Positions 18,125 to 52,319 of a stretch of 64,000 bases of DNA are shown in pieces (position 1 is the first letter of the stretch; every line of letters begins with the position of its first letter). The DNA is taken from contig JBBRPI010000017.1 of the NCBI GenBank assembly GCA_038228305.1, forward strand, positions 532 to 64,531. Reading direction: 5' to 3'. This stretch comes from Sphingomonadales bacterium (GTDB lineage: Bacteria; Pseudomonadota; Alphaproteobacteria; Sphingomonadales; Sphingomonadaceae). The notes beneath the pieces were generated by a model. The model did no database searches, was not told where the DNA came from, and was given only the letters and a program-made list of their open reading frames with translations. The position numbers were made by a program, and so were the translations under genes.

Positions 18125-18134
18125 TGCAATTCCT

Positions 18135-18178: not shown

Positions 18179-18253
18179 CCGTCAAGCCGCTTCAGGCTGG
18201 CCAATCCGCAAATTCGCTTCTAATTGTCCGGACAAAGCGCTGGAGATCGCCCA

Positions 18254-19114: not shown

Positions 19115-19242
19115 CGATTGCAGTCAAAAAATGGCGCAGTGCTTGACTCTGGCGCAGTAATAGCTTGTCTTTTCGTTAATCCGAATCGCTGACAAATGGC
19201 ATCGGCTGTTTGTATTGCTTTTCAGGTTATGGGGAAACGGCG

Positions 19243-20673: not shown

Positions 20674-21500
20674 AGTTCGTAAAATTTGCCGTGATGGCTG
20701 GAGTCATGGTCGCCTTCGCCGCTGCTGATGCCGCCGAAAATGCCGTTGCGAGTTGCTATGCCATGGTCAATATCGGCATGGTGCAGGCCAAACCAGCGCA
20801 TGAAATTTTTGTTCTGGTCGACCAGACAGTTTTGTTCGATGATGGTGTAAAGGCGTCGATCAACGAACGGCTACTACCGTTGCTGCGCCCGGGCACGGCC
20901 TATTCAGTTGCCAGCTTTTCAGCATATGGCCAAGGCCGCTATCCCGTGATCATCAGTTCAGGCGTTACCGAGGCTTCGGTCCCAGCGACGATGCGCAACG
21001 ATATTTCGGTGCCGAAACTGAAAAAGCTGGATGATTGTCTTCGCGCACAATTGCCATTTGCGTCCCGCACCATGCTGGCTGCCACAGCTATGGCGATTTC
21101 TGGCAGCAGCGGCGGTCTTGCCAATTCCGAAATCCTGGCCAGCCTTAAACAACTGTCGGCGCGCGTCGCCGCATCGCCAGCCCGGAAGAAAACCGTTGTC
21201 ATCATTTCCGACATGATCGAACATTCGACGATAACCAGCTTTTACAGCAAATCGATATTGCGCAAAATCGACCCTGACGTCGAATTTGCCAAAGCCACTG
21301 CTGCGGGCCTTGTTGCCAATTTTGGCGGCGCAGAGACTTATGTGATTGGTGCAGGCGCATTGCCGGCTGATAAACCCTCGGCGCGGCGCGGCACTGCCGA
21401 AATGACCAGTCTCGAACGCTTCTGGCGACAATGGCTCAATGCCAGCCGTGCCGATCTGGAAGAATTTGGTGAACCGTTGCTGTTGAAACCGATCGGTTAG
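20670..21500 (+). CDS. Secreted protein with a vWA-like fold
   Basis: Signal peptide; IFVLVDQT, SEILASL and VVIISDMIEHS resemble vWA/MIDAS elements; Cys pair. Confidence 0.72.
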   Translation: MKFVKFAVMAGVMVAFAAADAAENAVASCYAMVNIGMVQAKPAHEIFVLVDQTVLFDDGVKASINERLLPLLRPGTAYSVASFSAYGQGRYPVIISSGVTEASVPATMRNDISVPKLKKLDDCLRAQLPFASRTMLAATAMAISGSSGGLANSEILASLKQLSARVAASPARKKTVVIISDMIEHSTITSFYSKSILRKIDPDVEFAKATAAGLVANFGGAETYVIGAGALPADKPSARRGTAEMTSLERFWRQWLNASRADLEEFGEPLLLKPIG

Positions 21501-21622
21501 GGTTTGCCGGCCCAAGCTTGTGCCTGGCGTCCAAAAAATGCGATGAGTGCACCGCAACGTCGGCGGTCATGGTGCCACACCCCTGCTGCCAGCCGTCTTG
21601 CCTTGCGCTACAGCCCCACAGC

Positions 21623-22300
21623 ATGCCGTCTGATACCGTTCTTGCCTTAACTGGCCTTGCCAAGTCCGTTCCCGGCGGCCGTGTGCTGTTTTCCGGGCTG
21701 AATCTCGCCGTCGCTCCCGGTGAAATCATCGCCATCATGGGTGAATCCGGGGTGGGCAAATCGACCCTGCTCAATTTGATCGCCGGGCTGGACAGCGCCG
21801 ATGCAGGCGACATCCATATTGCCGGCAATGATCTGGGCCAATTGAACGATGATGCCCGCACGTTGCTTCGGCTCCGCCATATCGGTTTTGTCTTTCAGGC
21901 GTTCCACATCCTTCCGCATTTGACGCTGGCCCAGAATGTCGCGCTGCCGCTCGCGCTCGCCGGCAGCGACGCTGGCGCTACGCTGGCCGCTGCAGGCGCA
22001 ATGCTGGCCAATGTCGGGTTACCGGATCGCGACACAGATTTCCCATCCCAACTGTCTGGCGGCGAATTGCAACGTATCGCCATCGCCCGGGCATTGGTTC
22101 ATGCCCCGGCTCTGATTTTGGCCGATGAACCCACCGGCAATCTGGACCCCGAAACCGCCGCCCGAATCCTGACGCTGTTGACGGCGCAAATCCGTGCGTC
22201 GGGCGCCGCTGCGATTATCGTCACCCACAGCGACCGCGCCGCTGCCATTGCCGATCGCGTGCTGGTGTTGGGTCGGGATGGGCTGGTGGCGCGTGAGTGA
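21623..22300 (+). CDS. ABC transporter ATP-binding protein (LolD/AttE-like)
   Basis: GESGVGKST, LSGGELQRIAIARAL, ILADEPTGNLD, IIVTHS. Confidence 0.93.
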   Translation: MPSDTVLALTGLAKSVPGGRVLFSGLNLAVAPGEIIAIMGESGVGKSTLLNLIAGLDSADAGDIHIAGNDLGQLNDDARTLLRLRHIGFVFQAFHILPHLTLAQNVALPLALAGSDAGATLAAAGAMLANVGLPDRDTDFPSQLSGGELQRIAIARALVHAPALILADEPTGNLDPETAARILTLLTAQIRASGAAAIIVTHSDRAAAIADRVLVLGRDGLVARE

Positions 22301-33229: not shown

Positions 33230-34837
33230 GTGTCCGCTTCGATCGTTTCGAGCCATGGTTTGGCCGCACAGGGCTATGAAACATCGGCCGATCTGCACTG
33301 GAACCTGGGCACGGCGCCGCTGATCGAAATCGCGGTGACACGCCGTGAGGGCCTGCTTTCAAAGCGTGGCGCTTTCGTCGTCGAAACCGGCAAGCACACC
33401 GGCCGCAGCGCGCAGGACAAATTCATCGTTCGTGACGCGACCACCGAAAATGTCATCTGGTGGGACAAGAACAAATCAATCACGCCGGCGCAATTTGCTG
33501 CGATCAAGGCCGATTTCCAGGCGGCAGTGGCGGAGAAGAAGACCCTTTTCGTCCAGGATCTGTATGGCGGATCGCAGCCGGAATATCGGGTCAAGGTGCG
33601 GGTGATAACCGAATTCGCCTGGCACAGCCTGTTCATCCGCACCTTGCTCGTGCGGCCGGAGGCAGAAGCGCTGGCGGAGTTCCTGCCGGAATATACCATC
33701 ATCGATCTGCCCAGCTTCAGGGCTGACCCCGCCCGCCATGGCTGCCGCAGCGAAACCATTGTCGCGGTCGATTTTGCCAACAGGACAGTATTGATTGGCG
33801 GCACATCATACGCCGGCGAAATGAAGAAAAGCGTCTTTTCGATTTTGAATTACCTGCTGCCGGTCAAGGGTGTGATGCCGATGCATTGTTCGGCCAATAT
33901 CGGGCCAAAGGGCGATACCGCGGTGTTTTTCGGTTTGTCGGGCACCGGCAAGACGACGCTGAGCGCCGATGCCAGCCGCACGTTGATCGGCGATGACGAA
34001 CATGGCTGGTCCGACACCGCAGTGTTCAATTTTGAAGGCGGTTGCTATGCCAAGGTCATCCGCCTGTCGGCCGAAGCGGAACCCGAAATTTACGCGACCA
34101 CCCAGCGGTTCGGCACCGTCCTGGAAAATGTCGTTATCGACCCTGTCAGCCGTGAGATCGATCTGGACGACCACAGCCTGGCCGAAAACAGCCGGGCGTC
34201 ATACCCGATTGATTTCATCCCCAATGCCAGCGCTGACAATTTGGGTCCGGTGCCCGACAATGTGATCATGCTGACCGCCGATGCATTCGGTATTCTGCCC
34301 CCGATCAGCAAGTTGACGCCCGACCAGGCAATGTATCATTTCCTCTCTGGCTATACGGCGCGCGTCGCCGGCACCGAAATCGGCGTGACCGAACCCGATG
34401 CAACGTTCAGCACCTGTTTCGGCGCGCCGTTCATGCCGCGCCATCCATCGGTTTACGGCAATCTGTTGAAAGACCGCATCGCCAAGGGCGGCGTCGATGT
34501 CTGGCTGGTCAACACCGGCTGGACCGGCGGCGGCGCCGGCACCGGCGGCACCGGCACCCGCATGCCGATCAAGGCGACCCGCGCGCTGTTGAACGCGGCG
34601 CTGGATGGCAGCCTGAAGGCCGCGACCTTCCGCACCGATCCGAATTTCGGCTTCCAGGTGCCGGTCGCCGTCCCCGGTGTTGACGCCAAAATCCTCAACC
34701 CTCGCGATACCTGGGCCGACAAGGCCGCTTATGACGCCAAAGCCAAGGCGCTGGTTGGCATGTTCATCGAAAATTTCGCGCAATTTGCGGATCATGTGGA
34801 TGCGGGTGTGATGGAGAGCGCGCCAAAGGCGGCGTGA
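33230..34837 (+). CDS. pckA: Phosphoenolpyruvate carboxykinase (ATP)
   Basis: [50 protein letters not shown]; GTG start after AAGGA. Confidence 0.97.
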
Positions 34838-34934
34838 GGGGGAATTGCGGCCATTCTGGCTGCATCTGTCGCCCCAACACATTGATTTTAAGCAACTAAG
34901 CTGACACACTCCTGCGGTGCAAGGAGTGAACGAA

Positions 34935-35204
34935 ATGGCCGTGGTTTTCCGCTTTAGAAGCAGTGATCCTCGTCAGCGCACGATTATGAAGGTCGAAACC
35001 GTCGCCGATGCAGTCAACCATGTGATGCGAGTGCTCAACAGCAGAATGCGAAGTCGGCGGGAATACTGGACCTATGATCAGGAAGGCAGGCAGTTTCCGC
35101 TGGCTCGGGAACTCCGCGACACTCTGTCCAGGCATGGCACGGTGAAGCTTTATGATCGGGGCGGGGCTTACACGGATGACGCAGTGGAAATTTGTATCAT
35201 GTGA
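34935..35204 (+). CDS. Small hypothetical protein upstream of the RM system
   Basis: Strong AAGGAG RBS, 89 aa, no recognisable motif. Confidence 0.6.
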   Translation: MAVVFRFRSSDPRQRTIMKVETVADAVNHVMRVLNSRMRSRREYWTYDQEGRQFPLARELRDTLSRHGTVKLYDRGGAYTDDAVEICIM

Positions 35205-35343
35205 TGTGGTTCGCTGACTGCCTGCCGCTGGAATATTGGTGTTTGGATTGGCCTGAAAATCAGTGATAGTGCTTCGGCAACATGATCTCGCATTTGAGGC
35301 CGAAGCCGACAGTGCAAGATTGGTATGGGGAATTAATTGGCCA

Positions 35344-36510
35344 ATGCTGAGTTCAATCGAGCTGTTTGCCGGTGCAGGCGGGCTTGGGATGGGCATCAGC
35401 CAAGCCGGATTCGAGCCAGTGAAAATTGTTGAATGGGATAAATGGTGTTGCGACACCATAAGGCAAAACCGTCGTGCCGGCGTCGAGGCAATATCGAACT
35501 GGCCGGCGCCCACTCAAGGCGACATTCGCAAAATCAGCTTTGCCGGTTTTCAAAGCCAAATTGACCTTGTTTCGGGCGGCCCGCCCTGCCAGCCGTTTTC
35601 AATGGGCGGCAAGCATCGCGCCTATGATGACGACCGTGATATGTGGTCAGAGGCCGTTCGCGTAGTGCGTGAAGTGCGGCCCCGCGCATTTGTCTTTGAA
35701 AATGTCAAAGGACTGACTCGCGCGACCTTCGCTACCTATCTGTCCTACATTGTCCACCAGCTCAGCTATCCCGACATTGTTCGGAAGAACGATGACGATT
35801 GGTCTGCACATATGACGCGGTTGGAACGCCACCATACGTCGGGCGCTGGGACGGGGTTAGCATACAACGTCGTCTATCGCGTGCTCAATTCAGCCGATTA
35901 TGGTGTTCCGCAAAAACGCGAACGAGTCGTCTTTGTCGGATTTCGCAATGATCTTGGTATAGAATGGTCTTTCCCCAAAGCGACCCATTCACTTGAATCG
36001 CTTCTGTGGGAACAGTGCCATTCCGGCGACTATTGGGAACGGCATGAGATTTCTCGCGATGCGCGACCAGCCATTCGTTTTCACCGCCGTGGTGATATGC
36101 TCGCTAACCGCCCGTCGCTACTGCCATGGGGCACTGTAAGAGATGCGATTGGCGATTTGCCCGGCCCCGATCTGGATATTGAGCGCAGTGGGTGGCTGCA
36201 CAATCATCGCTTTCAAGCTGGCGCGCGCAGCTACGTCGGACACACCGGGAGCCCAATGGACGAGCCGGCAAAGACGTTGAAGGCCGGCGTCCACGGGGTT
36301 CCGGGTGGGGAAAATATGCTTTGCCGCGCTGACGGAAGTGTCCGCTATTTTACTGTCCGAGAGAGTGCTCGTTTACAGACTTTTCCGGACAGCTTTCGGC
36401 TGCATGGTTCATGGAGTGAATGCATGCGGCAGCTGGGTAACGCTGTACCTGTTCAATTGGCGAAAATAGTTGCCGAGAATGTAGCTAAGTGCCTTAATGT
36501 GGCGGAATGA
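35344..36510 (+). CDS. C5-cytosine DNA methyltransferase
   Basis: Motifs I (LFAGAGG), IV (GGPPCQPFS), VI (ENVKG), VIII (QKRERV), IX (RESARLQTFP) and X (LGNAVP). Confidence 0.96.
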   Translation: MLSSIELFAGAGGLGMGISQAGFEPVKIVEWDKWCCDTIRQNRRAGVEAISNWPAPTQGDIRKISFAGFQSQIDLVSGGPPCQPFSMGGKHRAYDDDRDMWSEAVRVVREVRPRAFVFENVKGLTRATFATYLSYIVHQLSYPDIVRKNDDDWSAHMTRLERHHTSGAGTGLAYNVVYRVLNSADYGVPQKRERVVFVGFRNDLGIEWSFPKATHSLESLLWEQCHSGDYWERHEISRDARPAIRFHRRGDMLANRPSLLPWGTVRDAIGDLPGPDLDIERSGWLHNHRFQAGARSYVGHTGSPMDEPAKTLKAGVHGVPGGENMLCRADGSVRYFTVRESARLQTFPDSFRLHGSWSECMRQLGNAVPVQLAKIVAENVAKCLNVAE

Positions 36511-37349
36511 GCCGAAATCCTTCAAGTATATCGGGCGTTGATAGCGCAATCGCGCAGCTTCAAGGGAATTTGGACAAGCTTGTTGAGCAGTCTGATTCTG
36601 CAGGTTTGGCAGCGAACAAGCGAAGGCCGGTTGAGAAGCAGATAAGGAAGATAATAACTCAGCTGTCTGGTCTGCTCGACAGGCTTGATCCTATACGACA
36701 GCCCACCGCGATTTTCGATCCCAGCAATCCTAAAATTATAGGCCGGTTTGTGTCGCTGGCGCTGGTGGCCCAGAGCCGGCACTCGCTTGGCGATATCGGC
36801 CAATTCTATGGATCGGGCGTTTATGCGATCTACTATACCGGGCCATATCATGCCTATCTGCCGATCAGTAAATCCGAAACTCCAATATATGTTGGGCAGG
36901 CGGCCCCGGCAATTCCCAGCGCACGAACGCCGATGGAGCAGGGCGCCAAATTGTGCAAGCGGTTGGCTGAACACGCGAAAAACATTGCGAAAGCTAATAC
37001 GACTTTATCGCTCGATGATTTCGAGTTTCGTTCACTTGTTGTGCAAAGTGGTTGGGAGTCAGCGGCCGAGGATTATCTGATTCACCTGTTTCGACCCATC
37101 TGGAATAGTGAGACGGATATCCTCTACGGACTCGGCAAGCATGGCGATGCCGCCACGACTCGGGCAAATAAGCGGTCGCCTTGGGACACGCTTCATCCAG
37201 GTCGAAAATGGGCGGCCGCCACAACTGAAGACGGACGCTCCGCTTCCCGAATTTCATCTGACTTGATGTCGCATTTTGCCTCCCATCGGGCCTTTCCAGA
37301 CATCGAAGCGGTTCTCACAAGCTTCATAGAAGAATTGCGGCAGGTTTAA
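36507..37349 (+). CDS. Eco29kI-family GIY-YIG restriction endonuclease
   Basis: GSGVYAIYY...IYVGQA, L.KRL.EH, AAEDYLI..FRPIWN, GLGKHGD, RSPWDTLHPGR; 4-nt overlap with the methyltransferase. Confidence 0.88.
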   Translation: MSRNPSSISGVDSAIAQLQGNLDKLVEQSDSAGLAANKRRPVEKQIRKIITQLSGLLDRLDPIRQPTAIFDPSNPKIIGRFVSLALVAQSRHSLGDIGQFYGSGVYAIYYTGPYHAYLPISKSETPIYVGQAAPAIPSARTPMEQGAKLCKRLAEHAKNIAKANTTLSLDDFEFRSLVVQSGWESAAEDYLIHLFRPIWNSETDILYGLGKHGDAATTRANKRSPWDTLHPGRKWAAATTEDGRSASRISSDLMSHFASHRAFPDIEAVLTSFIEELRQV

Positions 37350-37418
37350 GGTCGGGCGCGCTGCTTGGGCAGCCACTTCCCCCTCGCCCCGCACGCTTCC
37401 CCGCGCTATGCAGCGCGC

Positions 37419-38177
37419 ATGGGACGCAGACCGGTTACGAAAAATCATGGGCCAAAGAGCACATATCCGCGGCTATATGGTCGCCACGCGGTGTTTGCGG
37501 CGCTCGACAATCCTGAGCGGGTGTTTCGCAAGCTGTATGTGACGCATGCGACGGCCAAGACGATTATCATCCCCAAGGGGCTGGTGGTGCAATATGGCGA
37601 TGATGGCGATCTGGGCCGGCTGGTGCCGTCCGATGCGCCGCACCAGGGCTTTGTACTGGAGGTTGAACCGCTCGAATCGGTCTGGCTCGGCGACATATTG
37701 GGCGCAGCGCGAGAAGATGGCGAAAACCGCCCGATCATCGTCCTCGACCAGGTCACCGATCCGCACAATGTCGGCGCCATCATGCGCAGCGCCGCCGCCT
37801 TCAACGCCCGCGCGCTGGTAACGCAGGACCGCCACGCGCCCGGCGAATCGGGCGTGCTGGCGCGGTCAGCCTCGGGCGCGCTCGAAACTCTGCCATGGTG
37901 CCGCGTCGTCAACCTCGCCCGCGCGCTCGATGAAATCGGCGACGCCGGCTTCTGGCGCATCGGGTTGGACGGCACCGCCGAAACCGATCTGGAAACCGCG
38001 ATGGCCAAAACCCGGCCCTGCCTTATCCTGGGGGCCGAAGGCGAAGGCATGCGCGCGCTGACCCGCGAACGCTGCGACCAGCTGGCAAAACTGCCGATTT
38101 CGGCAGCGATGGAATCGCTGAATGTGTCCAACGCCGCCGCAATCGCGTTGTATGCGGCGGCCAGGCGCGGGCTTTGA
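37419..38177 (+). CDS. SPOUT/TrmH family RNA methyltransferase (RlmB-like)
   Basis: YGRHAV, HQG, LDQVTDPHNVGAIMRSA, LGAEGEG, ESLNVSNAAAI. Confidence 0.93.
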   Translation: MGRRPVTKNHGPKSTYPRLYGRHAVFAALDNPERVFRKLYVTHATAKTIIIPKGLVVQYGDDGDLGRLVPSDAPHQGFVLEVEPLESVWLGDILGAAREDGENRPIIVLDQVTDPHNVGAIMRSAAAFNARALVTQDRHAPGESGVLARSASGALETLPWCRVVNLARALDEIGDAGFWRIGLDGTAETDLETAMAKTRPCLILGAEGEGMRALTRERCDQLAKLPISAAMESLNVSNAAAIALYAAARRGL

Positions 38178-43780: not shown

Positions 43781-44674
43781 TTACGACAGTGTCGGCCCGG
43801 CAGACCCGCGCGCCATCGATGTCATCGATCGCATCATCAGATTGGCGTCGCCGCCATTGGCCAGCGCCGTTGGCCCGATATCGCGCCACAGATGGGCGCT
43901 GACGGCGGGCGGCACCGATCCGTCGGGCGCGATCGGATGTTCGGCGAGCAATTCTTCGTAGCGGGCATTGTCCGCTTCGGCATCACCCGACAGGTCACCG
44001 ACGCGTTCCAGCAGGCAGGCGGCCGCCACCGGCACGCCGCCGGCATCGGCCATGCAAGCCAGCGTGACGCCGTCCATCACATCGATACGCGGGCGGTGGA
44101 CCCGGTTGAAAATGGCAAAGATCGACCCGCCGGTGATCTGGTTTGTGGCGCAGCAGAACATTTGATCGCCCACCGCCATCGACCAGCCGACCAGCCGGCT
44201 GGAGAACAACCCGATGCGGAAGCGCAGCGGGCCATCGGCGCTTGCCTCCATGATAACATGATCATGGACGAACTTGCCGGGAAATTCGGGCACCGGGCGG
44301 GTGGTGCGCCAAAATCCTGCGATGGCGCGGCTGGCGGGGCCGCTGGCCAACGCCGATTCGCGAAATTTGCTCAGCGCAAGCCATTCATCAAAGCCCGACA
44401 GGATCAGGCGCGGTGCCGCGGTCAAGCTGATGCCGAAATTGGCCGCCAGATCGGCCAGCGGCATATCCCAGGCGTGCAGGGTAAATCCCGGCTGGCGCGT
44501 GGCGAAGTGCTGGGTCAACCGCGCCAGATTGTGCGACGATGGCACGACACTGCCGGCGCACCAGCGGCCAACCAGCGATTTGTCGACCCCCAGATCAGCA
44601 GCCAGCCGCCCCCGGCTCAGCGACAGTGCCTTTAGAATCAGCACCAGCCGTGCTGCAAACTCACCATCCCCCAC
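43781..44674 (-). CDS. XRE-type HTH regulator with an uncharacterised C-terminal domain
   Basis: LSRGRLAADLGVDKSLVGRW..G...P HTH at the N-terminus, followed by about 200 aa of beta-rich sequence. Confidence 0.85.
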   Translation of the reverse strand: MGDGEFAARLVLILKALSLSRGRLAADLGVDKSLVGRWCAGSVVPSSHNLARLTQHFATRQPGFTLHAWDMPLADLAANFGISLTAAPRLILSGFDEWLALSKFRESALASGPASRAIAGFWRTTRPVPEFPGKFVHDHVIMEASADGPLRFRIGLFSSRLVGWSMAVGDQMFCCATNQITGGSIFAIFNRVHRPRIDVMDGVTLACMADAGGVPVAAACLLERVGDLSGDAEADNARYEELLAEHPIAPDGSVPPAVSAHLWRDIGPTALANGGDANLMMRSMTSMARGSAGPTLS

Positions 44675-44755
44675 GGAAGAATTGCCCCCTTACCAAAGCG
44701 TAATACGCAGGCTTAACCATTGTCACTATCCGCTCGTCGCTGGCAACCCCAATCG

Positions 44756-44812
44756 TGCAACCGTTGCATGGCCAACATGCAACCGTTGCGCATTTCGGTG
44801 CGTGTTGTTGCA
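44756..44812. promoter_or_regulatory. Operator-like array with 22-bp phasing
   Basis: TGCAACCGTTGCA (44756), TGCAACCGTTGCG (44778) and a third half-site GTTGCA (44807); right half-sites start at 44763, 44785 and 44807. Confidence 0.7.
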
Positions 44813-44894
44813 CCTTTTGTCGCACCCCGCCGCCGCCTATCCAGTCGCCATGCCGCTGCCACCCGCAGACGGACAAATTCAGGGAAACATCATC

Positions 44895-45203
44895 ATGATC
44901 AAAACCATCGCATTTGCCGCCATTGCCGCTATCGCCGCCACGGTCGCCGTTCCCGCCGCCGCCGGGCCGGGGCTTATTTTGCAGGGTGTGGAGATGAACG
45001 GTCTGCAGCTTAACGGTCTGCGGCTTAACGGTCTGACGTTCAACGGCCTCAAGTTCAATGGCCTCAAGTTCAACGGTTTCAAAATGAACGGCCTCGTGTT
45101 CAACGGTTTCAATCTGAACGGCATCGATTCGGGCGCCGCGCAGGCCGGCTTCCGCGTCCAGCAGGTGACACTGGCCAATGGTGAAACCATCGTCGTAAAG
45201 TAA
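44895..45203 (+). CDS. Small secreted protein with nine NG-x-x-x pentapeptide repeats
   Basis: AGGGA RBS; signal peptide ending PAAA; NGLQL NGLRL NGLTF NGLKF NGLKF NGFKM NGLVF NGFNL NGIDS. Confidence 0.88.
   Translation: MIKTIAFAAIAAIAATVAVPAAAGPGLILQGVEMNGLQLNGLRLNGLTFNGLKFNGLKFNGFKMNGLVFNGFNLNGIDSGAAQAGFRVQQVTLANGETIVVK
44997..45131 (+). repeat. In-frame 15-bp tandem repeat (9 units)
   Basis: AA(C/T)GG(T/C) recurs every 15 nt and encodes the NG pentapeptides. Confidence 0.9.
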
Positions 45204-45224
45204 GGCGCACTGCCACCAGGCACC

Positions 45225-45259
45225 GGCCCCGGGCGTGCACCGCCCGGGGCCTTTGCGTT
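45225..45259 (+). terminator. Internal terminator/attenuator-like hairpin
   Basis: GGCCCCGGGCG-TGCAC-CGCCCGGGGCC followed by TTTGCGTT, between the repeat gene and the ADYC gene. Confidence 0.65.
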
Positions 45260-45273
45260 TGAAAGGATCGGCC

Positions 45274-46059
45274 ATGTTCCGCCTGCTTGCCGCCCTGCTG
45301 ATCGCCCTATTCGCGACGTCAGCAATGGCCGCGCCTGCCAGCCTTGGCGTTTCCGGCACGCGCTTCGTGCTCGATACCGGCGATGGCCGCAGCCTTGATT
45401 CGGCGGCGCTGATCGGCGCCGTATTCGATATGGTGACCCCCGAAGGCATCAATGCCAAGGTCCGCATCGATGGCATCCGTGCCGCGGCCGAAGCATCCGA
45501 CGTAACACTGCACAATCTCAGCGTCGAAAGCGCGCCGGGCATATGGTCGCCGTTGTGCGCCGCCGATGCCAAGGGCCGCAGAGCTGCCTTTCCAATGCGC
45601 GGCCGCTGGAACGGCGGCCATTTTGTCGCCGATGCCGGGGCCTGGTTCCTGACCTGCACATCGGGATCGCAGGCCAAATGCCGGCTTTGGGGCTTTGATC
45701 CCTGGGGTTCCGACCCCAACCGGTCACCGCTGCGACCGCTCTACGAGGCGTGCCAGCACATGGTGCGCGCCGATTATGATGGCAGTGGCGTCGCCCATAC
45801 CCGCGATGGCACCACCATCGACGGCTGGGGCGATATCGGCAGCGAACGGCCCGAAAGCCTGAATGATCCGCTGTTCGCCTTTGAGGCAGGATGGGGGCCG
45901 AATGGCGCCGTCTGCGTCGCCCGTACCCGCTGGCCGGAACTGCTGCCGACCAGCGTGCTGCTCGCCAGCCGGCCGCACCTGCGCGGCAACCCCTGCGATG
46001 AGGCCGAGGCGAGGCGGCGCGGCGCAGTGCTGTTCAACCGATCAAAGCTGAGACCCTGA
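45274..46059 (+). CDS. Secreted ADYC-domain protein (motif reads ADYD here)
   Basis: GAAAGGA RBS; signal peptide; WFLTCTSGSQAKC..WG..PW, ACQHMVRADYDGSG..HTRDGT.ID, FEAGW...GAVC. Confidence 0.82.
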   Translation: MFRLLAALLIALFATSAMAAPASLGVSGTRFVLDTGDGRSLDSAALIGAVFDMVTPEGINAKVRIDGIRAAAEASDVTLHNLSVESAPGIWSPLCAADAKGRRAAFPMRGRWNGGHFVADAGAWFLTCTSGSQAKCRLWGFDPWGSDPNRSPLRPLYEACQHMVRADYDGSGVAHTRDGTTIDGWGDIGSERPESLNDPLFAFEAGWGPNGAVCVARTRWPELLPTSVLLASRPHLRGNPCDEAEARRRGAVLFNRSKLRP

Positions 46060-46352: not shown

Positions 46353-46850
46353 TTACGGCAACGTCCGCAGCTGCGACAGAACCGCGAGCCGGACCCTGAG
46401 TGCGGCTGCCGCCGCAAGCGCTGATTCCGCGCCGGCCTTGCCTGCCAGATCGTCTTCGATGCGATCCAGCGCGCTGTCTTGCTCGGCGAGAGGCAGAAAC
46501 AGCGATTCATAGCGGCTGCGCTGCACTTCGGCCTCGGCACCTTCGGGGGCCGCCATGGCAATGTTGCGCTGGGCAGGCACCTGTCGTTCGACGGTGGCGA
46601 TCGCCTGATCGACACGACTGAGCCGTTGCGCGATATCAGCGGAAACGGGCGGCGGACTGTCCGGCACTGCTGCCTTGGCGGCTGCTAACACATCCTGCCC
46701 GCAGCCGGCACAGGTTGGCGCCAAGGGTTGCCCCAGCGATGACCCTTGTTCCCCCGGCCGCGTCGCCAGGCTGGGCCAATTGCCGCCGCGATCCAGGCCG
46801 GAACAGCCGGTGACGACCAACAACAGGGCCAGATGTGCACGCAGGTTCAT
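46353..46850 (-). CDS. Putative lipoprotein
   Basis: Lipobox-like VVTGC; WPSLATRPGE; helical Ala-rich C-terminus. Confidence 0.75.
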   Translation of the reverse strand: MNLRAHLALLLVVTGCSGLDRGGNWPSLATRPGEQGSSLGQPLAPTCAGCGQDVLAAAKAAVPDSPPPVSADIAQRLSRVDQAIATVERQVPAQRNIAMAAPEGAEAEVQRSRYESLFLPLAEQDSALDRIEDDLAGKAGAESALAAAAALRVRLAVLSQLRTLP

Positions 46851-46931
46851 GCCACCGTTGCTAGGCCGGGGGACAATTTCTGACAAGCTGTTGCCATTCG
46901 CCGCTGGCTCGCCTATTCAGCGCCTCCCAAT

Positions 46932-47008
46932 GCGCCCGTAGCTCAGCTGGATAGAGCATCAGACTACGAATCTGAGGGTCGGACGTTCGAATCGTTCCGG
47001 GCGCACCA
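46932..47008 (+). tRNA. tRNA-Arg(ACG)
   Basis: 77-nt cloverleaf: GCGCCCG acceptor stem, D arm AGCTGGATA, anticodon stem TCAGA-CTACGAA-TCTGA, TTCGAAT T loop, encoded CCA. Confidence 0.98.
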
Positions 47009-47049: not shown

Positions 47050-47594
47050 TTAGTGTCTGATCCAGAACTCCGCTGGACCGACTTTGGCTGTGTGCTTGCG
47101 GACGCCGGCTATGGGATGAGCGGCCGCTTCCGGCGGGCCATCGGCGACGCGCACGACAAGGACGGCCAGCATCTGCCCGGCGAGGCGGTCTGGGTTGTTG
47201 GCGAGCATCGCTCGACCGGCGAGCGCAAATACTACCTGTCCAACCTGCCCGCCGACACGCCGCTCAAGCAGCTGGCCGGTGCCATCAAGGCGCGTTGGGT
47301 CTGCGAGCAGGCGCATCAGCAATAAAAGGAAGAGCTCGGTCTCGACCATTGCGAGGGACGATTCTGGGCCGGGCTGCACCGACACGCTTTGATGTGCATG
47401 ATCGCACTGGCCTTCCTCCAGCCCCAGCGCCTCAAACAGGCGAGAGAGGGAAAAGCATCGCCGGGCCGCCGCCACAGCCGACGCTGCCGGCGATACGCCA
47501 GGCCATCCTCACCGCACTCGCAAGGCCGCCGCCTTCAAAGTGCCCGCACTGCCATAAACCGATACCGCCAAATGTTCTGCCAAAGTAGTGCTAG
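47050..47594 (+). mobile_element. Internally deleted IS701-family element (transposase pseudogene)
   Basis: ADAGYG, KYYLSNLP, RWVCEQAHQQ*KEELGLDH.EGR.W.GLHRH, then a frameshift to GPPPQPTLPAIR...CPHC; TAA at 47323; flanked by TTAG and CTAG. Confidence 0.9.
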
Positions 47595-48568
47595 TTCCCG
47601 ATCACCAGCACGGCAAAGCTGCCAGGCACCAACGGCGGCCGACCACCGCCGGCGGGCGCGGCGCCAAATGTTGCCGACGGCAGATACAGGTGTCCGGTCC
47701 GTTTATCGATCGCGATCGTTCGCGCGCTCACCTGCGTGCGCAATATCTGGATTATCTTTGCCTGCTTTCCGCCAAATGCGACTACCGCCAATGTCCCGTC
47801 GCGGCCGGCCGGGACAAAAGCCAGACTTCGGCCGGCATCATAGGCGACGCCGTCGGCGCCCTTGCCGGTCGGCAACACCTGAATGACCTTGCCGGTCGCG
47901 ACGTCGACGATGACCGATGTGCCGTCGCAAGCCGAAATCAATTGGCGGTCTGCGTTGACAAGGGCGATGCCCGTTGGCCCTTCACAACCCGCCAGCGGCC
48001 ATCGCGCGATGACCTGACGGCTGGGAATGTCGATAACAGCGATTTCGTTCTTGTCCTCCACATTCACATAGGCGCGATTACCAAGCACCGCTGCGGCCTC
48101 CATTTCGCCGCCAACGGTGATCGTTGCGACGACGGCATGTGTTCTGGGGTCGATCAGGGTCACGTCGCCACCAGCATGGTCCATCACCAGCACCAATCCC
48201 GATTTGGGATCATAGGTCGCAGCATCGGGACCTTTGCCGGTGGGCACTGTTGCCAACGTCTTGCCGGTCGCGGCGTCGGCAAAGACGGCGGTTTCGGTGC
48301 CGCCGTTGGTCACCAGAAGTTCGCCGGCGACCGGCAGCGCATCGTGCAGCCGAACCCCGGGGGCCAGGCCGGGCGTCACGGTTCGGGTCCCCAGATCGAT
48401 CGCCATCACCGAGCTGCCGCGCGCCACCAGCACCCGGTTGGCGCCGCCATCCACCCGGACATAATCCCAGCCGCCATCGGGACCGGGGATTCGGTCGACA
48501 ATCCGATAGGGCGGCGCGGCGGCAACTGGCAATGCCAGCAAGGCCGCCAGCAGAATGATGAACCGCAT
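47591..48568 (-). CDS. Secreted YncE/YVTN beta-propeller protein
   Basis: Signal peptide; GGWDYV, TGKGPDA..YD and TGKGADG..YD blade repeats; ARTIAID. Confidence 0.88.
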   Translation of the reverse strand: MRFIILLAALLALPVAAAPPYRIVDRIPGPDGGWDYVRVDGGANRVLVARGSSVMAIDLGTRTVTPGLAPGVRLHDALPVAGELLVTNGGTETAVFADAATGKTLATVPTGKGPDAATYDPKSGLVLVMDHAGGDVTLIDPRTHAVVATITVGGEMEAAAVLGNRAYVNVEDKNEIAVIDIPSRQVIARWPLAGCEGPTGIALVNADRQLISACDGTSVIVDVATGKVIQVLPTGKGADGVAYDAGRSLAFVPAGRDGTLAVVAFGGKQAKIIQILRTQVSARTIAIDKRTGHLYLPSATFGAAPAGGGRPPLVPGSFAVLVIGN

Positions 48569-48651: not shown

Positions 48652-50037
48652 TCATCGCCGGTCTGGGTCGATCTTGGCGCGTTCACACTGCGAATGGCGG
48701 CCGTTTATCGCGCAGCGGTTGACAATTCGGCCATCGCGGTCGTGCACCAGCACGCGCCATTTGCGGCTGCCGCTGCGTTCCATCGTCATAAACCCGAATC
48801 CGCCGGTCCAGCTGCTAAAGGCGTCGACCCGGGCATCAGGTGCCGGCTCGGTGCCTTGGGGAATTGTTGCTGGCATCGGCACTTCATTTTCCTGCGTTCC
48901 CGAAAATCCGGTGATGAACTGGCCGGGGTTATCGCTGGCAAAGCTGACCTGCTGCCAAAGATGGACATGGCCGGCGAGCAGCATTTCGATGCCTGGCGGC
49001 GCCATTCGTGGGCCAAAGCCAGCAAACACCGATTGGATCGCGGCGTTGCCCGGCTTTAGCACTGGCGGATTGCTGTCGTATTCGCCAGCAAAACCTAGAA
49101 TTGGATAATGACCAACGGCAAATGCATAGCGGGCACTGGCGCTGAGTTCGGCAACGCGCGCATAAGTGCGCCGCAGCGCTGCCGCCCGCCAATCATCAGC
49201 CTGCAGCGGTTTCGCACCCACTGCCGCCATGTCCATCATGATCACCCGGCCGCCATTGCCAAGATCGATCGCCCACGGATTGCTGGCATTCCCCATTCGG
49301 TCGTTTGCCGGATCATTGCAATCCTGGCCTTGGGCGCGTGGCCGGCTGTCGAGAAGCCGCCACCAGCCCTGGCCGGCGCGGTCGCAATTTTCATGATTGC
49401 CACGCGCCGCTGCCAAGGGAGCCGCAGCGAGCAGAGGTGAGGCTGGCGTGAAGAAATCCGCCGCCCAGGCATCCCAACCATAGCCCCATGGGCTGCCGGC
49501 ACATCCGGAATTGCCTGCCGGGCAGGGATTTTCGCGATAATGATAATCACCGACATGGATGACCAGGTCGGGTTTCCAGGCGGCTGCGCTGGCGGCGATC
49601 CGCGCAAAGGGAAATGTCGCGGGATCGTTACAGGCCTGCCAGGCAGCATCGGCGGCCTTTAGCCGGCAGCCGGTATCGCCGATGACCACGATGCGGCGGA
49701 TAACGCGTTTCGGCACTGACAGCTGTTGGCCCATCACGCTGACGCGGCGGGTGCCGGGTGCAATTCGGGTTTCGCAGACATTGAACGGAAACGCTGACGG
49801 TTTTGAAAGTGCCGCTGACGAGGCTGTCTGGCGCTGTGGCAAGGTTTCGGCGGCAAAGCGCAGCGTCATCGGTCGTTGCCGTCCATCGACGGTAGCCGAT
49901 GGACAGCCCGGCACCGCCGTGACCAGGCGCACGACCGCATCCCCGTCACCGGCCAGCACATAAGCGATATCGCTGGCCCCAGCCGCAGCCGGGAGGACCA
50001 GCAGGCCAAGGGCCAGCAACAAAAGCACGCGGGTCAT
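48652..50037 (-). CDS. Secreted calcineurin-like metallophosphoesterase
   Basis: Signal peptide; IGDTG, HVGDYHY, RGNHE, VGHYP, AGHVH metal-binding motifs. Confidence 0.9.
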   Translation of the reverse strand: MTRVLLLLALGLLVLPAAAGASDIAYVLAGDGDAVVRLVTAVPGCPSATVDGRQRPMTLRFAAETLPQRQTASSAALSKPSAFPFNVCETRIAPGTRRVSVMGQQLSVPKRVIRRIVVIGDTGCRLKAADAAWQACNDPATFPFARIAASAAAWKPDLVIHVGDYHYRENPCPAGNSGCAGSPWGYGWDAWAADFFTPASPLLAAAPLAAARGNHENCDRAGQGWWRLLDSRPRAQGQDCNDPANDRMGNASNPWAIDLGNGGRVIMMDMAAVGAKPLQADDWRAAALRRTYARVAELSASARYAFAVGHYPILGFAGEYDSNPPVLKPGNAAIQSVFAGFGPRMAPPGIEMLLAGHVHLWQQVSFASDNPGQFITGFSGTQENEVPMPATIPQGTEPAPDARVDAFSSWTGGFGFMTMERSGSRKWRVLVHDRDGRIVNRCAINGRHSQCERAKIDPDRR

Positions 50038-50051
50038 CGCCGGTGTGCCGT

Positions 50052-52319
50052 TCAGAACCGCAGGATGCCGGTCGCCTGAACACTTCGTCCGGGATTGAAG
50101 AAGTATTGGTTTCCGCCCGAAATGTTGGTCACCGACCGGTCGTTGAAGACATTGTAAACCGCGACACGAACCGCAACCTGGCCAAAACCGGCCTCGGCTG
50201 AAGCGATGCCGATGCTGTAGGCGCCGACCGGCAAGGTTTCATTGGCGCCGGTGAATTGCTTGCCGGTGAATTTCTGGACAAAACTGAGCTTGAACCGACC
50301 GGCATTGAACAGTGCACCCGCCAGCGCGGTGTATTCCGGTGCGCCCGGAACCCGAAAGCCGGTGACATCATCCTTTGACGAATTCACCGATCCATTGGCC
50401 AGCAGTGTGAAGTGCGAGAATGGCACAAAGCTGATTTGGCCTTCAAGCCCCTTGTAGGTCGAAGGGTGGCCGGTGTTGCTGCACTGTGCATTGGCGGGAC
50501 CAGTGCAGATGATCGTATTCGACAATTTTATCAGGTAAGCATCGACATCGATGTTCAGGCGATCACCGGCATAGACCGTGCCAACCTGATAGTTGGTCGT
50601 CGTCGTTGGATCCGGAATCAGCGGCGCTGTCGTTGACACTTCAAGGTTAGCTAGCGCCGGGATCAGGAAGCCCTTGGCATATTGGCCATAGATCGCCCAA
50701 TTGCCGTGCAGTCGATAATTCGCCGTCAGGAACGGCAGCGTCTTTTGGAAATTGGCCTCGCTGGCGGTGCCGAAACGGGCCTTTTGGGTGGCGATCGGTG
50801 ACAGGATATTGCGGCTGAAGTTCACATGTTTCACGCCTGGAGTGATCGTCAGGCCGTCCAACGGTTTCCAGTCAAACTGGGCGAAATACTGCTGTTGATA
50901 CCAGCTGGAACTTTCATCAAACTGGATGTTCTGTGGCACAGGTTGGCCATTCAATTGCAGCAATGGGCCGGTGACGGCTGTACCGTCCGGATTGACGCCA
51001 ATCTGCCCGGTGGTTTTTTGGTCATAATTATCGACTTGGGTGACGATTTCGCCATTGTTGAACGTGCTGCGGGTCATATCCAAGTCATACCGGAAACGGT
51101 GGGTATCGGAAAATTCCAGCCAGGCGCCAACCGTCAATTCGCCGAATCCGGTGTCATACTTTCCCTGCAATATGTCGCCATAGACGCGATATTGGTTCAG
51201 CTTGATATAGCCGGGAATGTCGCCCTTTATCGCGGTCGGTTTGCCATTGATCAGCGGGCTGGCGGATTGGCCGGCGCCGGGGGTGGTGATATCGGACGCC
51301 GACACCGTGTAGTTCTTGTAGAAATAGGTATAGGCCTTGTTATCGATCGAAAAACGATCGGTCAGCGGGACTTGCAGGCGGACAATCTCAAAATCTGCGC
51401 GTTTCTTGGTGAAATTCCAGTCGGCGCGGCTCTGGAAATAGGGATTGCTGGCAAAATCGGCATCGTTCACGCTGCTCAACGCGAAACCCTTGCCATAGCG
51501 TGCGACCTGATCAAGCGTCGCGCCATTATTGTCGGATTGGTTAAAGGCGTTGTTGTTGTACGATGCGACAATCGACAGCGTTCCCCGGCCGATCGGCACG
51601 ATCACCTTGCCAAACAGATTGTCGGCCTTCAGCGGGGAATTGCTCAACGCGCCATTGGTTTTCTTGTGCTCCCCGACAAACACCGCCTTGATGCCGGTTG
51701 ATCCGATTTCGCCGGTTTGCAGGGTGCCGCGATAAAGCTGTGTATTGAATGTGCCATAGCTGCCTTCCAAACTGCCACCGAACTTGTCGTTCACCGTGCG
51801 GGTGTAAATATTGATATTGCCGCCGAAATTGGCCTGACCCAATTGGCTGGCATTGCCGGGGCCGCGATCAACGACGATTTGTTCATAGGTGCCATTGGGG
51901 AAATAGCTGGTGGAATGATGGGTGGGATCATTGGTGTCGCCAAATGGGACACCATCAATGGTCATATTGTAATTGCCATCCTTGAACCCGCGCAGGTTGA
52001 TCTTTGATTCCGACAGGCCTGGGCCATTGCCGTTTGTGGTCTGCGACGCACCTGGCGTCAGCAGGATAACGTCGTTGAAGTCGGATGTTGCAAGGACGAC
52101 ATTGGCGATCACCGACCGGTTGATGATCGATTGCGGCTGCGTCGCTGCTATCGAAGACGTGATCGGCGTCTGTTCATTGACCTTGCTGGCGGTGACAACA
52201 ATCACGTCGCTGTCGGCGGCCGCCTCTGCCGCCTCTGCGGCCATCGGCAAGCAGGCGACGATCAGCGCGGCCAGCGAGGTGCAGGTCTGGAACGTGATGT
52301 GCAGCGGCGATGTGGTCAT
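50052..52319 (-). CDS. TonB-dependent receptor
   Basis: Signal peptide, DVIVVTA, plug domain (NLRGF, IDGVP, RGPG), barrel strands, C-terminal Phe. Confidence 0.92.
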   Translation of the reverse strand: MTTSPLHITFQTCTSLAALIVACLPMAAEAAEAAADSDVIVVTASKVNEQTPITSSIAATQPQSIINRSVIANVVLATSDFNDVILLTPGASQTTNGNGPGLSESKINLRGFKDGNYNMTIDGVPFGDTNDPTHHSTSYFPNGTYEQIVVDRGPGNASQLGQANFGGNINIYTRTVNDKFGGSLEGSYGTFNTQLYRGTLQTGEIGSTGIKAVFVGEHKKTNGALSNSPLKADNLFGKVIVPIGRGTLSIVASYNNNAFNQSDNNGATLDQVARYGKGFALSSVNDADFASNPYFQSRADWNFTKKRADFEIVRLQVPLTDRFSIDNKAYTYFYKNYTVSASDITTPGAGQSASPLINGKPTAIKGDIPGYIKLNQYRVYGDILQGKYDTGFGELTVGAWLEFSDTHRFRYDLDMTRSTFNNGEIVTQVDNYDQKTTGQIGVNPDGTAVTGPLLQLNGQPVPQNIQFDESSSWYQQQYFAQFDWKPLDGLTITPGVKHVNFSRNILSPIATQKARFGTASEANFQKTLPFLTANYRLHGNWAIYGQYAKGFLIPALANLEVSTTAPLIPDPTTTTNYQVGTVYAGDRLNIDVDAYLIKLSNTIICTGPANAQCSNTGHPSTYKGLEGQISFVPFSHFTLLANGSVNSSKDDVTGFRVPGAPEYTALAGALFNAGRFKLSFVQKFTGKQFTGANETLPVGAYSIGIASAEAGFGQVAVRVAVYNVFNDRSVTNISGGNQYFFNPGRSVQATGILRF

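What the first reader, a model, noticed from the sequence alone, without database searches (positions are those of the whole stretch)
43781..46059. Candidate undescribed system: XRE regulator divergent from a secreted NG-pentapeptide-repeat protein and a secreted ADYC-domain protein
Seen in sequence: a 102-aa exported protein that is mostly nine NGxxx repeats (hydrophobic at positions 3 and 5), followed directly by an exported six-Cys protein with the ADYC-family pattern; both are divergent from an HTH regulator. Established knowledge: the ADYC domain has no known function, and as I recall it often occurs in myxobacteria fused to similar NG repeats. Inference: this is the split two-gene form of a partner system, in which the repeat protein is a beta-solenoid/amyloid-like surface subunit or a repetitive Asn-Gly peptide substrate, and the ADYC protein is its nucleator, cap or modifying enzyme.
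Basis: partly seen in the sequence, partly recalled or inferred. Interest (0 to 1): 0.85.

Follow-up and report, generated by a model that had tools for sequence, protein, structure and literature searches.

The report
Split NG-repeat / ADYC exported protein pair
A small exported protein made of Asn-Gly five-residue repeats and an exported ADYC-domain protein of apparently new fold form a gene pair that is conserved in many soil and water bacteria, is fused into one protein in others, always sits beside its own regulator, and has no known function.

Summary
The window holds an XRE-like regulator (43781-44674, -). It is divergent from a 102-aa exported protein with nine in-register NGxxx repeats (44895-45203, +). 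A 261-aa exported six-Cys protein follows (45274-46059, +) and matches Pfam ADYC at 132 bits.

The pairing is not chance. In 77 usable ADYC loci from other species, 50 have an NG array within 700 nt upstream on the same strand. At least 15 more have degenerate versions. All 66 arrays lie on the ADYC strand. Four of four NG proteins found independently are followed by an ADYC gene. Single proteins with a lipoprotein signal, an NG array and an ADYC domain also exist.

The most conserved part of the small protein is a C-terminal beta-hairpin. The fused forms lack it, so I read it as a docking tag.

The ADYC model is confident (pLDDT 94) and matches no solved structure. The array resembles pentapeptide-repeat proteins only weakly, and AlphaFold does not fold it.

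The only conserved neighbours are regulators, and their type differs by lineage: XRE-like, ECF sigma plus Ser/Thr kinase, or histidine kinase plus response regulator.

Function remains unknown. My best reading is a two-part envelope protein: a repeat stalk plus an ADYC head.

The parts
43781..44674 (-). XRE-like regulator, 297 aa: N-terminal helix-turn-helix (residues 14-59) plus an uncharacterised C-terminal domain of about 230 aa
   Evidence: ORF. Pfam HTH_31 24.2 bits and HTH_3 20.1 bits, both just below cutoff. Full-length homologues lie divergently upstream of the NG gene in about 20 loci (tblastn, 29-75% identity). No PDB sequence match.
44756..44768 (.). Palindrome TGCAACCGTTGCA (6-1-6), candidate operator 1 in the divergent promoter region
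   Evidence: with the next site, the only two matches in the 64-kb window (0.30 expected). The same palindrome occurs in 11 of the 25 other XRE-side intergenic regions examined in related loci.
44778..44790 (.). Second copy, TGCAACCGTTGCG (1 mismatch), 22 nt from the first
   Evidence: L011 and L014 also carry two copies, 23 nt apart.
44895..45203 (+). NG-repeat protein gene, 102 aa: signal peptide (44895-44963), nine NGxxx repeats (44997-45131), linker, C-terminal beta-hairpin tag VTLANGETIVVK (about 45156-45200)
   Evidence: Family alignment A3 shows the tail as the most conserved part after the signal-peptide cleavage region, with L93 invariant. In the AlphaFold model only the tail hairpin is confident (pLDDT about 87; strands 90-92 and 98-100).
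45225..45251 (+). GC-rich stem-loop (11 G-C pairs) followed by TTTGCGTTTG, between the two genes: intrinsic-terminator-like attenuator or stabiliser
   Evidence: Fold energy -39.1 kcal/mol, z -2.9. A comparable hairpin is present in 25 of 35 pairs (the window's own pair included) whose intergenic gap is at least 40 nt (z < -2).
45274..46059 (+). ADYC-domain protein gene, 261 aa: signal peptide (residues 1-20), N-terminal beta-hairpin region (22-43), ADYC domain (44-220), C-terminal helices; AAAGGA lies 7 nt before the ATG
   Evidence: Pfam PF20032 132 bits. 488 homologues. AlphaFold pLDDT 94.2, pTM 0.88. No structural match in PDB or BFVD. Residues invariant over 89 sequences are listed.

Best explanation
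The two + strand genes encode the two halves of one envelope (extracytoplasmic) protein unit, expressed under a dedicated local repressor or activator.

Shown:
- Both products carry Sec-type signal peptides.
- The genes are adjacent and co-oriented in dozens of species from several phyla.
- In other bacteria the same two parts, in the same order, are one polypeptide with a lipoprotein signal.
- Several NG genes can accompany one ADYC gene.
- The C-terminal hairpin of the small protein is conserved even where the repeats have almost vanished, and it is absent from the fused forms.
- A stable hairpin usually separates the two genes.

Inferred:
- The NG array is a variable-length stalk or spacer. 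It is either a divergent pentapeptide-repeat beta-helix or a flexible, turn-rich tether.
- The C-terminal hairpin is a docking tag. It binds the ADYC protein, probably against the ADYC N-terminal beta-hairpin region, and so replaces the covalent link of the fused forms.
- The ADYC domain is the working head. It is disulfide-bonded, has a new fold, and carries invariant polar residues (K135, R165, Y168, T176, D186, E204, R219) that may form a binding or catalytic site. It binds or acts on an unknown envelope ligand.
- The hairpin between the genes makes the small protein more abundant than ADYC.
- The XRE-like protein controls both promoters through the paired TGCAACnGTTGCA sites.
For: Adjacency:
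- 50 of 77 usable loci by a strict automatic rule. 66 arrays in total, none on the opposite strand.
- Degenerate variants that keep the signal peptide and tail occur in at least 15 more loci.

Reciprocal test: 4 of 4 NG proteins are followed by a PF20032 gene, with gaps of 2-116 nt.

Gene overlaps of -18 to +5 nt in Lysobacterales imply translational coupling.

Fusions:
- Seven proteins of 314-420 aa hold a lipoprotein signal, an NG array and an ADYC domain. Larger ones also exist.
- The precomputed Pfam hits for P0266 are Pentapeptide plus ADYC.

Tail:
- Most conserved part after the signal-peptide cleavage region.
- The only confidently modelled part.
- Missing from the fusions.

Multiple NG genes sit beside one ADYC gene in L016, L017, L019, L062 and L066.

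ADYC:
- Confident model with no structural relative.
- 26 residues are conserved in at least 93% of 89 sequences.

Hairpin between the genes.

Regulator and operators.

The only conserved neighbours are regulators.
Against: - There is no direct evidence that the two proteins bind.
- AlphaFold leaves the repeat array unstructured (pLDDT 40-47), so 'stalk' is an assumption.
- Profile comparison finds no homology between the NG protein and the ADYC N-terminus.
- Some NG genes, with their own XRE paralogue, have no ADYC gene next to them (L006, L016, L018).
- About 6 ADYC loci have no recognisable small partner.
- The small protein has an ordinary signal peptide, not the lipid anchor of the fused forms, so the split unit may not be tethered in the same way.
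- There are no expression data.
Confidence: 0.5

Rival explanations
1. Enzyme and substrate. ADYC is a periplasmic enzyme that recognises the conserved C-terminal hairpin as a follower peptide. It then modifies or cuts the Asn-Gly repeats (for example Asn deamidation or succinimide chemistry, cross-linking, or release of pentapeptides). This would resemble precursor/enzyme pairs of modified peptides, but outside the cytoplasm.
For: - A variable core plus a conserved recognition tail, with several 'precursor' genes per ADYC gene.
- Strictly conserved N-G, the most chemically labile dipeptide (established chemistry).
- Invariant K, R, Y, T, D, E, R residues in ADYC, typical of an active site.
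- The hairpin between the genes would give substrate in excess over enzyme.
- The array is unstructured in the model.
Against: - Fused lipoprotein forms place array and ADYC in one chain at 1:1 and lack the tail. That is unusual for an enzyme and its substrate.
- There is no similarity to any known enzyme in sequence or fold.
- In Lysobacterales the genes overlap, which suggests equal amounts.
Confidence: 0.2
2. Polymer with nucleator or cap. The NG protein is an abundant subunit that stacks end to end into a beta-solenoid or amyloid-like fibre. ADYC nucleates or caps it, as CsgB does for CsgA in curli.
For: - A small, N/G-rich, repeat-built exported protein is followed by a partner, with a terminator-like hairpin that would favour excess subunit.
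- There are multiple subunit paralogues.
- A divergent regulator is present.
- The subunit is disordered when modelled alone.
- The array profile matches solenoid-forming pentapeptide proteins in the PDB (Qnr 3pss, E 2.5e-7).
Against: - No outer-membrane channel, chaperone or other assembly genes are conserved near the pair in 80 loci.
- Arrays can be as short as 2-5 repeats.
- The fused forms are 1:1 and lipid-anchored.
- Genes overlap in Lysobacterales.
Confidence: 0.15
3. Signalling module. The small exported protein or its C-terminal piece is a signal, and ADYC processes or presents it. It is sensed by the neighbouring regulator: the periplasmic TPR domain of the Ser/Thr kinase, a histidine kinase, or, after uptake, the XRE-like protein. 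This would resemble XRE-type regulators paired with small secreted peptides in Gram-positive bacteria.
For: - Regulators are the only conserved neighbours, and three unrelated types occupy the same position.
- An ECF-NG-ADYC-kinase operon exists, with a kinase that has a transmembrane segment and C-terminal TPR repeats.
- XRE paralogues pair 1:1 with NG genes even without ADYC.
- The C-terminus of the small protein is its conserved part.
Against: - A cytoplasmic XRE protein cannot see a periplasmic ligand without an importer, and none is conserved.
- The XRE C-terminal domain has no TPR match.
- A regulator simply controlling its neighbour operon explains the same pattern more simply.
- The lipid-anchored fused forms do not fit a diffusible signal.
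Confidence: 0.1

Closest known systems
ADYC domain family (Pfam PF20032), function unknown
   Same: Full-length match at 132 bits. The conserved Cys pattern and the TC(T/S)G.Q.KC, RADY.G.G..T+.GT.ID and FEAGW motifs are shared with 488 homologues.
   Different: In this clade the name-giving Cys is Asp (RADYDG). The domain here stands alone behind a signal peptide, whereas other members carry the NG array in the same chain. I found no paper on the family.
Pentapeptide-repeat proteins (Pfam PF00805/PF13599; MfpA, Qnr, Np275/276, Rfr proteins): right-handed four-sided beta-helix
   Same: Tandem five-residue units with hydrophobic residues two apart. The family profile hits Qnr (3pss, E 2.5e-7), designed beta1 proteins, Np275/276 and MfpA in the PDB. 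Some relatives carry Pfam pentapeptide hits or the source name 'YjbI with pentapeptide repeats'.
   Different: - The window protein scores 16.5 bits against a 38-bit cutoff.
- Asn-Gly is nearly invariant at positions i+1 and i+2, and position i-2 is bulky (L/I/F) instead of small.
- The protein is exported, not a cytoplasmic DNA mimic.
- AlphaFold does not give the beta-helix.
- It has a C-terminal hairpin tag and an obligate partner gene.
Curli CsgA/CsgB (functional amyloid subunit and nucleator with divergent regulator operon)
   Same: A small exported N/G-rich repeat protein lies next to a partner gene, with a divergently transcribed regulator.
   Different: There is no CsgG/E/F-like export or assembly machinery near the pair. 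The repeat type is different. Fused single-chain forms exist. There is no sequence similarity.
XRE-type regulators paired with small secreted peptides (RRNPP-type quorum sensing of Firmicutes; from my own knowledge)
   Same: An HTH regulator lies beside a small gene with a signal peptide whose C-terminal part is the conserved part.
   Different: No TPR domain is detected in the regulator. The organisms have two membranes. The small protein has a protein partner, and other lineages replace the XRE protein with ECF/kinase or two-component regulators.

Membership tests
ADYC domain (PF20032) | Match to the Pfam model above its gathering score | tested here: met
   132 bits against a 27-bit cutoff, profile positions 2-175 of 176.
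ADYC domain (PF20032) | Conserved A-D-Y-C motif | tested here: not met
   The window has RADYDG, as do its closest relatives. More distant split and fused members have RADYCG. The other conserved Cys residues are kept.
Pentapeptide-repeat proteins (PF00805 / PF13599) | Match to a Pfam pentapeptide model above its gathering score | tested here: not met
   Pentapeptide_4 scores 16.5 bits, E 0.009, against a 38-bit cutoff. Some homologues do carry such hits.
Pentapeptide-repeat proteins (PF00805 / PF13599) | Sequence relationship to proteins with a solved four-sided beta-helix | tested here: inconclusive
   The family profile hits Qnr 3pss at E 2.5e-7, and MfpA, Np275/276 and others at weaker E-values. 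The match rests on shared periodicity of L and G.
Pentapeptide-repeat proteins (PF00805 / PF13599) | Right-handed quadrilateral beta-helix fold | tested here: inconclusive
   The AlphaFold model with 108 sequences leaves residues 30-83 at pLDDT below 50 with no strands. This may reflect a poor repeat alignment or real disorder.
XRE-family HTH regulators | Helix-turn-helix of the HTH_3/HTH_31 type | tested here: inconclusive
   HTH_31 24.2 bits (cutoff 27, E 4e-5) and HTH_3 20.1 bits (cutoff 23) at residues 14-59. A conserved palindrome in the promoter region supports DNA binding.
Curli-like functional amyloid systems | Dedicated outer-membrane export and assembly genes (CsgG/E/F-like) with the subunit genes | tested here: not met
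   Clustering of all neighbours within 5 kb in 80 loci finds only regulators as conserved partners.
Curli-like functional amyloid systems | Subunit forms amyloid fibres | not testable with these tools
   This needs purified protein, thioflavin-T and electron microscopy.
RRNPP-type peptide/regulator pairs | Regulator with a peptide-binding TPR domain behind the HTH | tested here: not met
   No TPR or other Pfam or NCBIfam domain is found in residues 60-297. No PDB sequence match.

The most novel reading that the evidence does not exclude
The NG array is not a passive stalk but a new kind of templated envelope material. In this reading the ADYC head, a fold with no solved relative, nucleates or caps the stacking of Asn-Gly pentapeptide arrays from one or several small subunits. 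These dock through a dedicated C-terminal hairpin tag. The result would be an inducible periplasmic or surface structure whose length is set by repeat number and subunit excess. Cells would switch it on through whichever regulator the lineage uses (XRE, ECF/kinase or two-component). That would be a new protein assembly principle and a new envelope-stress output shared by Alpha-, Beta- and Gammaproteobacteria and Acidobacteriota.
Probability: 0.2. Interest if true: 0.8.

Novelty: new variant of a known kind. Interest (0 to 1): 0.55.

Why it matters
ADYC is a catalogued domain with no function, no solved structural relative and no literature. This work gives it a firm partner, the exported NG pentapeptide-array protein. 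It also gives a split/fused relationship showing the two act as one unit, a candidate docking tag, a set of invariant residues to mutate, and defined regulators with a candidate operator.

The module occurs in cultured strains, including Glacieibacterium frigidum, Caulobacter ginsengisoli, Tahibacter aquaticus, Panacagrimonas perspica, Azospirillum soli, Nevskia ramosa and Solimonas flava. Binding, localisation and knockout experiments are therefore straightforward.

If the array really folds or polymerises on the ADYC head, it would be a new envelope structure. If ADYC is an enzyme, it would be a new periplasmic activity on Asn-Gly repeats.

As it stands this is a well-defined, widespread gene pair of unknown function, not a demonstrated new mechanism.

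Tried and rejected
- The single-sequence homologue search with the NG protein gave only 2 hits and missed the protein itself. A profile of locus-derived sequences was needed.
- AlphaFold of the NG protein alone gave a low-confidence array, so I did not search folds with it.
- Foldseek of the ADYC model against the PDB (best E 0.07, TM 0.14) and BFVD found nothing. A PDB sequence-profile search found nothing.
- NCBIfam has no model for either protein.
- Literature searches for 'ADYC' and 'PF20032' found nothing relevant.
- I considered that the N-terminus of the split ADYC protein is a relic of the repeat array, because it shows a 5-residue periodicity of hydrophobic residues. The profile-profile comparison aligned only the signal peptides, so I dropped this as evidence.
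- Expression: the window comes from a sediment metagenome with DNA runs only. RNA searches for two isolates' loci gave one metatranscriptome, and its contig covers only a stretch upstream of the small gene. This was uninformative.
- Second ADYC copies were looked for next to 'orphan' NG genes. None was found within the 5-kb flanks.
- The pair as chance neighbours or a spurious ORF: rejected.
Full report
**What is there**

The finding's interval holds three genes.

On the minus strand, 43781-44674 encodes a 297-aa protein. Its first 60 residues look like an XRE-type helix-turn-helix. Pfam HTH_31 scores 24.2 bits (E 4e-5) and HTH_3 20.1 bits, both just under the curated cutoffs. The remaining 230 or so residues match nothing in Pfam, NCBIfam or the PDB.

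On the plus strand, ATG 44895 to 45203 encodes a 102-aa protein. AGGGAAA lies 8 nt before the start. The protein has a typical signal peptide (MIKTIAFAAIAAIAATVAVPAAA|G), nine in-register NGxxx units and a 24-residue C-terminal part ending VTLANGETIVVK. The DNA shows 15- and 30-nt tandem periods. An independent gene call on a Logan contig gives the same 102-aa product.

ATG 45274 to 46059 encodes a 261-aa protein. AAAGGA lies 7 nt before the start. It has a signal peptide and six Cys, and it matches Pfam ADYC (PF20032) at 132 bits over the whole model.

The only nuance is that this clade reads RADYDG where the family name expects RADYCG.

**Is the pairing real?**

I collected 80 loci that encode ADYC relatives, one per species, from the genome collection. 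I then looked for runs of NG spaced five residues apart in all six frames. There were 66 such arrays in 737,628 nt. All 66 are on the ADYC strand, and 54 end within 700 nt upstream of ADYC. By this strict rule, 50 of the 77 loci with enough upstream sequence have one.

Most 'negative' loci hold degenerate relatives. Examples are NALTS/NALTT repeats (L005, L036), two or three repeats only (L037, L046, L055) and Gly-rich versions (L051). All of these still have the signal peptide and the same C-terminal motif. About six loci show nothing recognisable, and three are cut by a contig end inside or just before the array.

The taxa span Sphingomonadales, Caulobacterales, Rhizobiales, Azospirillales, Lysobacterales, Nevskiales, a Rhodoferax relative and Thermoanaerobaculia.

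I also ran the reverse test. Four NG-family proteins were picked from a search with the NG profile alone. They came from Falsiroseomonas tokyonensis, Solimonas flava, Nevskia ramosa and a metagenome contig. All four are followed, 2-116 nt downstream on the same strand, by a gene with a precomputed PF20032 hit.

In Lysobacterales the two genes overlap or abut (-18 to +5 nt), which implies translational coupling.

**Fused forms**

I searched 1.84 billion representative proteins exhaustively with the NG profile. This returned 12,006 hits at E <= 1e-3, a number that includes generic pentapeptide-repeat proteins.

Among the best 150, seven proteins of 314-420 aa match my ADYC profile behind an N-terminal NG array: P0266, P0274, P0308, P0252, P0305, P0349 and P0272. 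Larger proteins carry QGxSx arrays, an ADYC domain and further domains. For P0266 the precomputed Pfam hits are Pentapeptide (faint) plus ADYC.

The fused proteins start with lipoprotein-type signal peptides (…AGC, …CAC, …TGC). Their order, array then ADYC, is the gene order of the split form. I could not verify the organisms.

**Anatomy of the small protein family**

I extracted 64 small proteins from the loci. The repeat region is very variable:
- It holds 2 to 40 units.
- Unit types include NGLKF, NGVSY, NGIWE, NGQFQ, NGLST and NGGGE.
- There are sub-periods of 10 or 15 residues.

Many members have a Cys pair just before the array (CxxC or Cx4C) or just after it (Cx6-7C).

After the signal-peptide cleavage region, the most conserved part is the C-terminus, h-x-V-x-L-P/A-x-G-x-x-h-x-h-(K/R/D), with an invariant Leu. 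The tail motif differs by lineage:
- VTLANGETIVVK-like in sphingomonads.
- WSAVPL..VQVRLP..R in Lysobacterales.
- IELP.. in Rhizobiales.

The tail is nearly identical among paralogues in one locus, although their arrays differ.

In the AlphaFold model of the window protein (108-sequence alignment) only this tail is confident. It is a beta-hairpin with strands at 90-92 and 98-100 and pLDDT about 87. The array stays below pLDDT 50.

The fused proteins lack the tail. Their array runs straight into the 'SGTxFxV…G' hairpin that begins the split ADYC proteins. I therefore read the tail as a docking tag that replaces the covalent link. This is an inference.

**Is the array a pentapeptide-repeat beta-helix?**

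The family profile hits solved pentapeptide-repeat proteins: Qnr 3pss at E 2.5e-7, and designed beta1 proteins, Np275/276 and MfpA more weakly. In that alignment the second hydrophobic residue takes the central 'i' position and Asn-Gly takes i+1 and i+2. Some relatives carry Pfam pentapeptide hits or are named 'YjbI with pentapeptide repeats' by JGI.

Against this:
- The window protein is far below the Pfam cutoff (16.5 against 38 bits).
- The i-2 position is bulky where canonical members have Ala, Ser or Thr (my knowledge of the family).
- AlphaFold does not build the helix.

Membership is unproven. A flexible turn-rich tether remains possible.

**The ADYC protein**

With 120 homologues AlphaFold gives pLDDT 94.2 and pTM 0.88. 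The model has a beta-rich N-terminal half and a mixed C-terminal half.

Foldseek finds no relative in the PDB (best E 0.07, TM 0.14) or among viral models. A sequence profile finds no PDB entry. No library of predicted structures of cellular proteins was available, so 'new fold' means new relative to solved structures.

Over 89 split and fused sequences the following are conserved in at least 93% (window numbering): G48, C95, G101, C128, G131, K135, C136, G140, Y/F141, P143, W144, C160, R165, Y168, G170, T176, G179, D186, F203, E204, A205, W207, G211, A212, C214 and R219 (the printed numbers need +3). Five Cys and a set of polar residues this constant suggest disulfide bonds and a functional site. 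I cannot say whether that site binds or catalyses.

I found no paper on the domain.

**Expression signals**

Between the two genes lies a stem of 11 G-C pairs followed by TTTGCGTTTG (45225-45251; -39 kcal/mol, z -2.9). Among 35 pairs (the window's included) with a gap of at least 40 nt, 25 have a comparably stable hairpin, often with a T-rich tail. This suggests partial termination or transcript stabilisation, so that the small protein outnumbers ADYC. It is untested.

The 221-nt divergent region carries TGCAACCGTTGCA and, 22 nt on, TGCAACCGTTGCG. These are the only two matches in the 64-kb window. The same 6-1-6 palindrome occurs in 11 of the 25 other XRE-side intergenic regions examined in related loci, twice with 23-nt spacing. 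It is a good candidate operator for the XRE-like protein.

**Neighbours**

I clustered all predicted proteins of the 80 loci. The only conserved neighbours are regulators, and they differ by lineage:
- The XRE-like protein occurs in about 20 Sphingomonadales, Caulobacterales and Rhizomicrobium loci.
- An ECF sigma factor (PF07638) upstream and a membrane Ser/Thr kinase with C-terminal TPR repeats downstream occur in Lysobacterales and Thermoanaerobaculia. In places these form an ECF-NG-ADYC-kinase operon (L035; L090).
- A hybrid histidine kinase plus an OmpR-type response regulator occur in Rhizobiales, Reyranellaceae and Nevskiales.

No export or assembly genes are conserved.

Extra XRE + NG pairs without ADYC occur in L006, L016 and L018. 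No second ADYC lies within reach of them.

**Interpretation**

The association is established: the products are co-oriented, co-inherited, often co-translated, exported, and fused elsewhere. The function is not.

I favour a two-part envelope protein (confidence about 0.5). In this reading the NG array is a variable stalk or spacer. Its C-terminal hairpin docks on the ADYC protein. ADYC is the working head, and a dedicated regulator switches the operon.

The lipid-anchored fusions and the loss of the tail in them speak for this reading. The rivals are:
- Enzyme-substrate chemistry on Asn-Gly (0.2).
- A polymer with ADYC as nucleator or cap (0.15).
- A signalling role towards the neighbouring regulators (0.1).

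Each makes a clear experimental prediction, listed under the next steps.

**Novelty and score**

Both parts belong to catalogued families, and relatives are already annotated as 'ADYC domain-containing protein' and 'pentapeptide repeat-containing protein'.

As far as my searches show, the following have not been described:
- The obligate gene pair.
- The split/fused relationship.
- The hairpin tag.
- The conserved hairpin between the genes.
- The operator.
- The lineage-specific regulators.

I rate it a new variant of a known but uncharacterised kind, with interest 0.55. It is a clean, widespread and experimentally tractable unknown, and no mechanism is demonstrated yet.

Noticed in passing
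window 46932-47008 (+), and 47053-47886: A tRNA-Arg(ACG) lies about 870 nt downstream of the ADYC gene. It is followed at once by short ORFs in shifting frames (…YYLSNLPADTPLKQLAGAIKARW…, …MCMIALAFLQ…). From memory these resemble the 3' part of an IS701-type transposase. Pfam gave no hit on the two pieces tested. This may be a decayed insertion at a tRNA.
   Followed up: partly
window 46353-46886 (-): A 177-aa ORF with a lipoprotein-like start (…LLVVTGCSG…) and no Pfam match lies just downstream of ADYC. A 34%-identical ORF lies downstream of the ADYC gene in L009 only. It is probably an unrelated neighbour.
   Followed up: partly
L011 6830-7200 and L014 8720-9100: Paralogues of the XRE-like regulator, with the same paired TGCAACnGTTGCA sites, sit divergent from a different tiny gene (MKLIPLAIAAASLVVVVVMALSVPA…, about 33 aa). 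A conserved protein of about 170 aa follows. So this regulator family also controls other small exported or membrane peptides.
   Followed up: partly
L016 6835-7562 and 7757-10393; L018 5682-5987: 'Orphan' NG-repeat paralogues carry a CxxxxC motif just before the array (CPTWQC, CSVWRC, CPAWRC). They lie next to their own XRE paralogue. In L016 they lie directly upstream of an 878-aa ORF that looks like a TonB-dependent receptor (my reading of its sequence; no family search was run).
   Followed up: no
L031 3344-4300: Three tandem small genes carry a CNPDGTC motif, few NG units, an (AVS)n run and the usual tail (…VTLVDGSVVAVK). This is a local expansion of a divergent subfamily.
   Followed up: no
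L001, L032, L064 (locus starts): In three loci the public contig ends within or just before the NG array upstream of ADYC. The repeats seem to break short-read assemblies, so the pair is probably under-counted in metagenomes.
   Followed up: no
window 18001-22000, 34001-38000, 50001-52000: These segments have clearly lower G+C (0.55-0.58 against about 0.63 elsewhere). They were not examined.
   Followed up: no
window 47591-48568 (-): A 325-aa exported protein has weak YncE-like / PQQ beta-propeller matches, below the Pfam cutoffs. It is unrelated to the finding as far as seen.
   Followed up: partly
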